NCBI GenBank assembly: GCA_016935985.1
Contig: JAFGPW010000004.1
Location: forward strand, 1 to 64,000
Length of the DNA stretch: 64,000 bases
Origin: Candidatus Woesearchaeota archaeon
GTDB lineage: Archaea; Nanobdellota; Nanobdellia; Woesearchaeales; JAFGPW01
Direction of reading: 5' to 3'
Part shown: piece by piece, positions 62 through 3,000 of the stretch
Layout of the letters: each line of letters starts with the position of its first letter
Numbering within the stretch: the first letter of the stretch is position 1
Program-made: the position numbers

Positions 62-3000
62 AGGACCAGTATCTCAGTGTCCTTCTCCGGGCTACCCCTC
101 TCAGGGCCCGTACCGATCTTTGGTTTGGTGGGCCATTACCCCACCAACAGCCTAATCGGCCGCCGGCTCATCCTTAGGCGTCGCCTTTCAAGGATGCTGC
201 CTTCCAGCACGCATCCCCTATCGGGTCTTACACTCAGTTTCCCGAGATTATCCCCAACCTAAGGGCAGATTACCGACGTGTTACTGAGCATTATGCCGGT
301 GTTGCCACCAGACTTGCATGGCTTAGTCGAATCCCAATAGCAGCAGCCTCCCGCAGGATCAACGGGATTTTGGGTGTCGCTAAAGAGTGTTCCGTAAACT
401 CGTATCAAGGAATTGTCACGAGGTTAATCGTTTTGCTTTACATCCTGCATCATACTTCAAGTTGCGTTGAAGTACTCATGGTAAGCCAATCAAAGAACGG
501 GAGGCGATAAGGATACCGTCTTGGGACGGCATCCAGGTGGATATCGGGGTTGTATATAAGGCTTTCGCTCGCGATCCAGGGGAAGGGATCGCTGTCGTCG
601 TCTGGGATACGCCGCGTAGCGAGACCTCGTCCTGAGAAGCAAGGTCGAGCAGCCGCTGACGACGGCGAGGGCGAGACGGGTCGAGGCCGAGCAAGCCATC
701 CCTTCCGGAAGAGGGATATGATTATGCATGAATATGTATCTTTACCGTCGAGAACGGGACGGAGCCGGCCGCTCAGCCTACTTCCTGAGACGCTTGCGCT
801 TCTCGCGTTTCATGCGCTTGCGCTGCCACTTCCAGCGCATCTGCCCCTTCTTCTTCCAGCGCCGTGAGCTCCGTTTCATGGTGGATGCCGTGAGGAAATT
901 GCTACGGTTTATAAAAGTATCTGATGCCCTGTGCGGCAGACAGCAATCAAAGATTGCCGGGCCACGCGTCGCATCTCCGCGAGATGCCCCGTGCGGGATT
1001 CGAACCCACGTCCTCGGATGTTTTCGGCGAGAACCGAAAATTTCAGCAATCTCCGATTGCTCGCCACGAAAATCCGAGATGATTGGCCGGACTACACCAA
1101 CGGGGCGATTGAAAGGTGGGCCTGCGGGGATTCGAACCGACGGTTTCGTCCGTCGACACCGAGGGCAAGCGCTCGCCTCCGGGTCGGCTCACCGCAGACC
1201 GTGGGACCGGACACCAGCCCGCGTCCCACCGACTCCTCTGGGCCCTATCCTTTCGGAAAGGATACTGGGCCTGCGGGGATTTGAACCCCGGACCACTGGT
1301 TTTCCTAGACTGCCCATGAACTTGGCTGTGCGGACAGCGGTCGTATAAGACCAGCACTCTCACCAGACTAAGCTACAGGCCCGTCTGCAGGGGCCCTGAG
1401 GAATCCTGGGCTATTTAAATATATTGCGTTTGGCGGGCCTGCACAAGCTTTAAGAAGATTCCCGGATTCCCCCGGCGTATGAAGACCTACACTATCGCGC
1501 TCGATATGAATGTCGAGGATAAGGCCGAGATATTGCATGGACGGCACGGCAAGAGGGTCGTCGGGCAGAAGGGAATCGATCATGCGGCGCGTGGCGCGGC
1601 GATGGCGCTTCAGGACCATCCCGATCTCGAGCTCCTCATCATCGGCGACAACAAGGACATATCCTCCAAGGAAGCGGGCCACCGCACGCCGCGCCTCGAA
1701 CAGGCCCTCATCACTGGAGCGGAGGAGGTGGGAATCGATTATAATGACATCGCCGGCAGGTTCAGGATCATCCACGCGCCGCGGATTATCAGGCCGGGCC
1801 AGAAGGGCATCAAGGACATCCCGTTTACAGAGCTTATGGAGACGAGCGTCTACCGGACGATCGAGACCCTGACGCTCGGGACTCCTGCGCAGGCGGCGGT
1901 CACCTGCACCGACACAGGGGCGGTGCTCAACCTCGCCAGCATGAAACAAGGCGAGAGCAGGAAGGACAAGAAGCCGTTCATCCCGATGATCGAGGGCATC
2001 GATATGGCGACGCTGTGCGCCCCGTTCCCGAGCCAAGGCAGGACCGGCTACACGCTCGTCCTTGACATCGGCGGCCTTGCCGTCTCCTCGCCGCTCAACT
2101 ACCTGCACAACGCGGTGATGGCATCAGCGCTCCTCAAGTCTCAGGAGCGGATCCGGAGCAGGCCGAAGGTGGGTCTCGTCAATATAGGTAAGGAAGCGAA
2201 GAAGGGCGACGAGTTCCTCAGGTTCACCGACCTCATCCTCAGGAAGTACGTCGCCTCAACCTCGCAGTTCGACTATCTCGGCTTCGTCGAGGGAAACGAC
2301 ATCTTCACCGATCCGGCGAAGGACTCGGAGCACAAGCCCGACATCGTCCTCGTATCGGGCATGGCAGGCAACATCATGCTCAAGGCGATCGAGGGGTTCG
2401 GCAGGTTCATCAAGGGCGAGCTCGGGACGGCGGCAGGCAGCGGCTATGTGTCGAAGGCAGCAGCGGGGATTTTCTTCAAGGCGACCGGAGGCGGGAAGCG
2501 CTTCACCAGGCGGATCACCCCTGAGGCCTACGGTGGCGCCTACATCCTCGGGTACAGGAAGCTCATCATCAAGGGCCACGGCGCGTCATCTGACCTCGCG
2601 ATACACGCCTCGATCGGGAAGGCGTACCAGGCGGTATCCCATGATTACATACCGACGGCGGAGGATTATCTCCGCCGGTGGGGCACCGATGCCGTATCGA
2701 AGCGCATCACCGCTGAAGCGAAGTCACTCTGGTATCTGCAGCAGAAGCTCAGGGTCATGTTCAACAAGGCGTATGAGAAACTCGGCTGAGGACAGCGCAG
2801 GTCACTTGGCGAGCCTCTTGAGGTCGGTCTGCCCCTTCTGCTCCTCAGGGAGTACCTGGCTAAGGTCGAGCTCGAGGTTCTCCTCATCAGTGAGGAGCGA
2901 GATCCCGATCTCGCCGAACGACACTTTCTGCAGGAGATCCACCTTGCGCTGGTTGTCGAGGTGCAGCAGCGGCACGAAGGTGTAGACCTTGTCCTCCTTG

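What a model noticed while it worked through the whole genome (the two positions that open the first line are those of the whole stretch)
1479..2789. PlsX, an acyltransferase and cyclopropane synthase point to fatty-acyl lipids in an archaeon
The genome holds a PlsX homolog between archaeal tRNA and scpA genes, a PlsC/PlsB-type acyltransferase (g00144) and a cyclopropane fatty acid synthase (g00058), but no GGGP synthase. It likely builds or remodels its membrane from host-derived fatty-acyl phospholipids rather than ether lipids. PlsX was reported absent from Archaea.
Evidence so far: g00173 TIGR00182 E 1e-35, core motifs NIG.E..KG, FVEGND, KGHGAS kept; family in 62 of 10117 archaea, 45 in the order; 13 of 301 genomes, mostly in a fixed slot between the Dph2 and Hel308 halves in one family. 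g00058 42% to E. coli Cfa. PcrB/GGGPS not found. PMC6431249 passages: no PlsX or PlsB in Archaea.
(Added by a program. Inside this text positions count along the whole contig: contig position 1 is position 1 of the stretch shown here. "Call 12" and the like, gene names such as g00115 and contig names such as C1 are that model's own, and its searches are not shown. The text may have been shortened before it was handed on; [...] marks where a part breaks off. The agent that wrote the report below was given it as the finding of a first reader that could run no searches.)

Follow-up and report, generated by a model that had tools for sequence, protein, structure and literature searches.

The report
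Orphan PlsX lipid enzyme in Woesearchaeota
A tiny archaeon carries a native copy of the bacterial lipid enzyme PlsX, reported as missing from archaea, but none of its usual partner genes were found, so it likely recycles fatty-acid chains in lipids probably taken from a host rather than building a bacterial-type membrane itself.

Summary
The gene is real: window 1479-2789 encodes a PlsX-family protein (sequence, predicted fold, core residues) in an archaeal housekeeping region with native codon use. The family occurs in 17 of 401 sampled genomes of the order (Woesearchaeales), in 11 families, under purifying selection. The Cfa, the acyltransferase and the missing GGGP synthase are confirmed. 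The inference is weaker than written. No PlsX genome has PlsY (0 of 17; PlsY is in 11 others). PlsC-type genes and loss of GGGPS are order-wide and not tied to PlsX. This genome shows no ACP, fatty-acid synthesis, acyl activation, glycerol-3-phosphate source or headgroup enzymes, so de novo building is not supported. Cfa is enriched with PlsX (4 of 17 vs 1 of 43, nominal p 0.02). Lgt and LspA fit a membrane of scavenged acyl lipids, but both are already in a 2021 supplementary table. Best reading: an uncoupled acyl-thioester/acyl-phosphate transacylase for salvage, likely no longer using ACP. I found no paper reporting archaeal PlsX, though one supplementary figure has an unreadable plsX column. 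The scan had noted Woesearchaeal acyl-lipid genes and Lgt/LspA on other DNA, not PlsX.

The parts
1479..2789 (+). PlsX-family acyl-thioester:phosphate transacylase, 436 aa. Core K242, N298, K302, H367, D196, G198 kept; GNTG motif reads TDTG; basic RxKKDS patch replaced by acidic TELMET; C-terminal helical extension.
1..369 (-). 5' part of archaeal 16S rRNA (context: contig is archaeal)
   Evidence: RF01959 E 1.6e-100
985..1106 (-). intron-bearing tRNA (context)
1266..1382 (-). intron-bearing tRNA, divergent from plsX (context)
2802..3680 (-). scpA, convergent with plsX (context); prefoldin alpha and ftsY follow
30180..30698 (+). bacterial-type lipoprotein signal peptidase LspA (start uncertain); partner Lgt lies outside the window at G000:C2:10657-11427

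Best explanation
The gene is a long-resident, bacterially derived PlsX-family enzyme of Woesearchaeales that has no PlsY partner and likely interconverts long-chain acyl-thioesters and acyl-phosphate for salvage of fatty-acyl chains, in a cell whose membrane is probably made of acyl phospholipids taken from a bacterial host. Shown: family, fold, core residues, native context, distribution, no co-occurrence with PlsY, no de novo lipid route found in G000. Inferred: the cell gets whole lipids from a host; Cfa, Lgt and the HX4D acyltransferase act on them; PlsX feeds or drains the acyl pool for re-acylation; in ACP-less lineages the thiol carrier is probably CoA. The source of acyl-phosphate or long-chain acyl-CoA in G000 is not identified.
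For: PlsX fold and core residues: N298, K302, H367, D196, G198, P184 in 22 of 22 archaeal rows, K242 in 21 of 22, at about 20-25% overall identity. dN/dS 0.10-0.24 in five pairs of relatives. Codon score 0.58 vs genome median 0.62. PlsY in 0 of 17 PlsX genomes. ACP match in only 4 of 17, none in G000 with a sensitive profile. Basic patch net charge -2 in G000 vs mean +2.4 (range 0 to +4) in 31 non-archaeal rows. No ether or ester backbone genes in G000. Cfa 4 of 17 vs 1 of 43. Lgt 54 of 60, LspA 5 of 5, neither in 4 archaeal controls. In family f44 plsC sits beside an AMP-binding-like ligase. A PlsY-independent role of PlsX is described in E. coli (PMC11633183, passages).
Against: PMC11633183 states PlsX/Y cannot use acyl-CoA, so a specificity switch is needed. 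No acyl-activating enzyme or fatty-acid kinase was found in G000. PlsC-type genes are missing in 7 of 17 PlsX genomes. The Cfa link rests on 3 families and is one of 7 comparisons (about p 0.14 corrected). G000 has Asp for the conserved Asn of GNTG and Ala at the B. subtilis Leu258 position, where L258A delocalises the protein. G000's Lgt is divergent (FFGG and GRVAC where relatives have FHGG and GRIGN). Lgt might accept archaeal lipids. No dN/dS for G000 itself.
Confidence: 0.45

Rival explanations
1. Remnant of an ACP-linked fatty-acid module. PlsX arrived with ACP/FabF/FabH/Cfa and drains acyl-ACP without PlsY; in G000 the rest has eroded and the gene is fading or has a minor role.
For: plsX lies next to gpsA and fabF in G182 (unpublished genome) and near fabH in G256; f57 genomes have ACP, FabF, Cfa and keep RxKKDS. 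Long branches, insertions and internal duplications. dN/dS is 2-5 times that of controls.
Against: Core residues stay invariant and dN/dS stays low in f44, which has no ACP match in 4 near-complete genomes; 12 of 29 f44 genomes keep the gene.
Confidence: 0.2
2. One reading: the cell builds ester phospholipids itself with PlsX plus the acyltransferase; missing genes are in the unassembled 8% or too diverged.
For: G000 is 92.5% complete. The PF00501 search missed an AMP-binding-like gene in G158, so negatives are fallible. Some relatives hold more of the route.
Against: About ten independent families are missing at once; G158 (100% complete) also lacks PlsY, ACP, FabF, GpsA, GlpK and CDP-alcohol transferase. 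PlsY in 0 of 17.
Confidence: 0.1
3. Repurposed short-chain phosphotransacylase (Pta/Ptb-like) that conserves energy with acetate kinase.
For: Shared fold with Pta/Ptb; G000 has AckA.
Against: G000 already has a pta-ackA pair; AckA is in only 3 of 17 PlsX genomes vs 17 of 43 others; the membrane-tip helix region is kept.
Confidence: 0.08
4. The enzyme acts on host acyl-ACP reached through a cytoplasmic contact, releasing acyl chains for the symbiont.
For: Would explain PlsX without own ACP, FAS or ligase; some ACP-less genomes (G239, G262, 88% complete) keep RKKDS.
Against: No signal peptide visible in the sequence; the basic patch is lost in G000; no host is known.
Confidence: 0.12
5. Contamination or misassembly.
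For: No contig piece spanning the gene was seen in the 56% of run X1 that was read (a hole proves nothing).
Against: Archaeal rRNA, tRNAs and scpA flank it; native codon use; 16 other genomes in archaeal contexts; best database hit only 33% identical.
Confidence: 0.03

Closest known systems
Bacterial PlsX (B. subtilis 1VI1/6A1K, E. faecalis 1U7N; PF02504, TIGR00182)
   Same: Fold (TM 0.84-0.88), residues aligned to B. subtilis K184 and N229, KxHG motif, helical tip region.
   Different: About 22-33% identity, below the TIGR00182 cut-off; no PlsY in any of 17 host genomes; no ACP in most; basic patch lost in G000; GNTG reads TDTG; extra insertions and C-terminal helix; not in a fab operon in G000.
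Pta/Ptb phosphotransacylases
   Same: Same superfamily fold and thioester-to-phosphate chemistry; use CoA, as inferred here.
   Different: Foldseek E 3e-9 vs 5e-24 for PlsX, 10-14% identity; G000 has a separate Pta.
FakAB-PlsX-PlsC exogenous fatty-acid route of Firmicutes (PMC10146087, passages)
   Same: PlsX running from acyl-phosphate to thioester to supply PlsC is the logic of the salvage model.
   Different: No DegV or Dak2 match in 5 of 5 PlsX genomes tested; no ACP in G000.
Scattered archaeal PlsY/PlsC/GpsA (PMC6431249 passages; PMC8204110 section 7)
   Same: Bacterial lipid genes in DPANN and Asgard genomes, incomplete pathways.
   Different: PlsX is the enzyme those texts list as not found in Archaea; here it marks genomes that lack PlsY.

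Membership tests
PlsX family (PF02504) | Pfam score over the curated cut-off and PlsX fold | tested here: met
   127.7 bits vs 29.1; top six Foldseek hits are PlsX
PlsX family (PF02504) | Lys184 and Asn229 equivalents (their catalytic role is recalled from Jiang et al. 2020; not found in the library) | tested here: met
   K242 and N298 align to K184 and N229 of 6A1K; conserved across archaeal rows
PlsX equivalog (TIGR00182) | Score over 243.4 bits | tested here: not met
   123.2 bits; five relatives scored 97-240
PlsX equivalog (TIGR00182) | Basic surface patch for ACP (predicted patch, PMC10146087; its assignment to RxKKDS is recalled) | tested here: not met
   net -2 vs mean +2.4 in 31 non-archaeal rows
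PlsX equivalog (TIGR00182) | Amphipathic membrane tip (B. subtilis 253-261, PMC6702220) | tested here: inconclusive
   S, K, A, A kept, Leu258 position is Ala; model pLDDT 55-62 there
PlsX equivalog (TIGR00182) | Acyl-ACP:phosphate transacylase activity | not testable with these tools
   needs an enzyme assay
PlsX/PlsY/PlsC phosphatidic acid pathway | PlsY in the same genome | tested here: not met
   0 of 17; profile search negative in G000
PlsX/PlsY/PlsC phosphatidic acid pathway | Acyl-ACP and glycerol-3-phosphate supply | tested here: not met
   no ACP, FabF, GpsA, GlpK match in G000; genome 92% complete
PlsX/PlsY/PlsC phosphatidic acid pathway | HX4D acyltransferase | tested here: met
   C2:119683-120897, PF01553 over cut-off, HESWYD and PEGT; subclass not resolved (model pLDDT 46)
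Cyclopropane fatty acid synthase (Cfa) | Full-length match to E. coli Cfa | tested here: met
   6BQC E 1.7e-78; NF008686 364 bits, just under cut-off 400
GrdD (reductase component C alpha) | Match to NF040747 | tested here: not met
   no hit for the window protein; trace hits only in two relatives

The most novel reading that the evidence does not exclude
Woesearchaeales are archaea whose membranes consist of bacterial ester phospholipids stolen from bacterial hosts, and their PlsX is a new ACP-independent, CoA-using long-chain phosphotransacylase that recycles acyl chains to remodel that membrane together with Cfa, an HX4D acyltransferase and Lgt/LspA.
Probability: 0.3. Interest if true: 0.82.

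Novelty: new variant of a known kind. Interest (0 to 1): 0.52.

Why it matters
It corrects a published absence (PlsX in Archaea) and gives a soluble enzyme that can be assayed: a conserved PlsX kept without PlsY, and mostly without ACP, must have a different substrate or product sink. It adds one marker to the case that a whole archaeal order lives on the bacterial side of the lipid divide. It does not by itself show what the membrane is made of.

Tried and rejected
The search for related loci with the archaeal alignment could not run (no conserved stretch), so no organism-titled loci were obtained. The 'relatives' search returned no genome of the same family or genus. The careful tree did not finish in two runs; quick trees were used. 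Single origin of archaeal PlsX: one side of a branch at support 80 in a 34-row tree after dropping 19 rows, including unnamed P0025 which fell among the archaeal rows; two clades plus a singleton in a 194-row FastTree; AU p 0.41 for 23 rows chosen after seeing a tree. Neither shown nor rejected. Pta substitute rejected. G036 hit is a Pta, dropped from the count. G000's UbiA protein matches decaprenyl-phosphate phosphoribosyltransferase best, not DGGGPS. A weak CDP-alcohol transferase profile hit was a polysaccharide flippase. Acyltransferase structure too poor for a fold search; no PDB sequence hit. My lipobox pattern gave 16 of 1194 genes but control residues gave 4-19, so it is not evidence. 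Reads: no RNA holder listed; no piece spanning plsX in the part of run X1 read. No complex prediction was run. A recalled PlsX-without-PlsY case in Chlamydia could not be confirmed (0 papers).

Full report
OBSERVATION. The ORF at 1479-2789 (+) encodes 436 aa. It matches only PF02504 in Pfam (E 6.9e-37) and the PlsX models in NCBIfam, below the TIGR00182 cut-off (123 vs 243 bits). Three PDB sequences match, all PlsX. An AlphaFold model from a 21-row alignment (pLDDT 82) hits PlsX chains first (E 5e-24 to 5e-19) and Pta/Ptb far behind. K242 and N298 align to B. subtilis K184 and N229; that these are catalytic is recalled, not from a call (search 47 found nothing). The gene lies between intron-bearing tRNAs and scpA, near an archaeal 16S rRNA. 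Its hexamer score (0.58; genome quartiles 0.49-0.71) and GC3 (0.83; genome 5th-25th percentile 0.77-0.84) are native. The best other database hit is 33% identical. The PlsX of order-mate G356 is labelled Candidatus Woesearchaeota, so the order is taken as Woesearchaeales.

DISTRIBUTION. PF02504 is over cut-off in 17 of 401 genomes of the order, in 11 families (an 18th, sub-cut-off hit is a Pta). A phylum sample gave 15 of 401, all in this order, 12 of 29 in family f44. The proteins are 17-29% identical to the query, yet P184, D196, G198, N298, K302 and H367 are invariant in 22 of 22 archaeal rows and K242 in 21 of 22. Five pairs of relatives give dN/dS 0.10-0.24; three housekeeping controls give 0.03-0.08. 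Trees group them by host family but leave one versus two or three acquisitions open. The five source-named archaeal members I saw are all called hypothetical protein. Contexts are archaeal housekeeping genes; f44 has the slot beside the Hel308 C-half; two genomes have fatty-acid neighbours: gpsA and fabF in G182 (unpublished) and fabH in G256.

PARTNERS. PlsY is over cut-off in 11 of the same 401 genomes and in none of the 17. Chance overlap would be about 0.5, so this is not avoidance, but it excludes a PlsX/PlsY partnership. On a 60-genome panel (17 PlsX, the 11 PlsY, 32 others in handle order): PlsC-type 10 of 17 vs 28 of 43; full-length GGGPS/PcrB only in G164 and G230, both PlsX-positive; ACP 4 of 17 vs 8 of 43, several being domains of fusions; strong FabF 3 of 17 vs 2 of 43; GpsA 2 of 17 vs 16 of 43; AckA 3 of 17 vs 17 of 43; Cfa 4 of 17 vs 1 of 43. 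Only Cfa is nominally associated (p 0.02 of seven tests, three families). G182 contributes to the PlsC, ACP, FabF and GpsA counts.

THIS GENOME. G000 has Cfa, one HX4D acyltransferase with only two relatives found, pta-ackA, a divergent Lgt and an LspA inside the window. No match was found for PlsY, ACP, FabF/H/D/G, thiolase, carboxyltransferase, AMP-binding, DegV, Dak2, GpsA, GlpK, CdsA/CarS, CDP-alcohol transferase, GGGPS or G1PDH, and custom profiles for ACP, PlsY, GpsA and the f44 ligase were negative too. Caveats: the genome is 92% complete, and the PF00501 search missed an AMP-binding-like gene beside plsC in G158. With neither backbone route, the cell most likely takes whole lipids from another cell (inference).

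WHAT THE LIPIDS ARE. Lgt is in 54 of 60 genomes (17 of 17 PlsX) and LspA in 5 of 5, in none of four archaeal controls. From established knowledge Lgt uses phosphatidylglycerol and Cfa modifies unsaturated acyl chains in bilayers, so both fit acyl lipids. PMC12462473 says no archaeal Lgt is known (passages), but PMC8204110 Table S3 lists Lgt and LspA families in 83% of Woesearchaeota (rows seen), and this scan has reported it many times. It is background support, not a new result.

MECHANISM. A PlsX with an intact core, no PlsY and no ACP needs another substrate or sink. G000 has lost the basic patch (net -2 vs mean +2.4 in 31 non-archaeal rows; archaeal rows range -2 to +4 and align poorly there); f57 and G182, which have ACP or FabF matches, keep RxKKDS. 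A basic ACP patch is predicted in PMC10146087 (passages); placing it on this segment is recalled. I favour salvage: interconversion of acyl-phosphate and a thioester, probably CoA, to recycle chains for re-acylation of scavenged lipids (0.45). Against: canonical PlsX is said not to use acyl-CoA (PMC11633183, passages), and no activating enzyme was found in G000. Rivals are an eroding ACP-linked remnant (0.2), action on host acyl-ACP (0.12), de novo synthesis with unseen genes (0.1), a short-chain energy role (0.08) and contamination (0.03).

LITERATURE. Searches listed no paper reporting archaeal PlsX. PMC6431249 (passages) states none was found. PMC9385802, PMC13400652, PMC7242380 and PMC13014828 (passages) and the 2026 Nanobdellota preprint (term search of main text; its supplements are closed) add none. 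Supplement searches of PMC8421398 and PMC7414124 were negative (only 3 small files held for the latter). The supplementary figure of PMC8204110 has a column 'bacterial_membrane_lipids_plsx' whose cells I could not see, so the presence may already be plotted there. Castelle and Banfield 2018 and Villanueva 2017 were not read.

VERDICT. Real, native, selected, and apparently undescribed: a new variant of PlsX uncoupled from PlsY. It does not show that this archaeon builds a fatty-acyl membrane; remodelling of host lipids is plausible and testable. Interest 0.52.

Noticed in passing
window 30180-30698 (+); G000:C2:10657-11427 (-): Bacterial-type LspA in the window and Lgt elsewhere; Lgt in 54 of 60 order genomes. 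Already in a 2021 supplementary table.
   Followed up: yes
L053, L055 (G009, G015); G023:C138 by coordinates: plsC-plsC-gpsA operons in PlsX-negative genomes, a stronger sign of de novo acyl-lipid backbone synthesis than anything in G000.
   Followed up: partly
L135:5608-9585 (G056): acpS - MFS - AMP-binding/ACP/PlsC fusion; similar ACP-PlsC fusions in G001, G019, G164, G341.
   Followed up: partly
L138:4126-10182 (G158), L061 (G356): The same MFS type with plsC and a Pfam-negative AMP-binding-like ligase, flanked in G158 by ADP-forming acyl-CoA synthetase-like genes (read by eye): a candidate ACP-free salvage module in family f44.
   Followed up: partly
L026-L031, L047-L051: PlsY in 11 of 401 order genomes, none with PlsX; its acyl-phosphate source is unexplained. 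G311's PlsY has a long extra membrane domain.
   Followed up: no
L140:940-2662 (G062): A 414-aa acyltransferase with weak GPAT_C match occupies the slot beside the Hel308 C-half that plsX holds in f44 and G077.
   Followed up: partly
window 1266-1382 (-): Intron-bearing tRNA whose anticodon reads UAU (Ile) by eye; ARAGORN called it differently, so unverified.
   Followed up: no
L011 (G356), L123 (G477), L013/L015/L115: f44 PlsX proteins with internal duplications or a 60-residue insertion while core residues stay intact.
   Followed up: partly
window 7244-7909 (-): Hel308 helicase N-half as a separate 221-aa gene; relatives carry a separate C-half.
   Followed up: no
L065, L066 (G164, G230): Family f57 has GGGPS/PcrB together with ACP, FabF, Cfa and PlsX matches: a candidate for mixed lipid chemistry.
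   Followed up: partly
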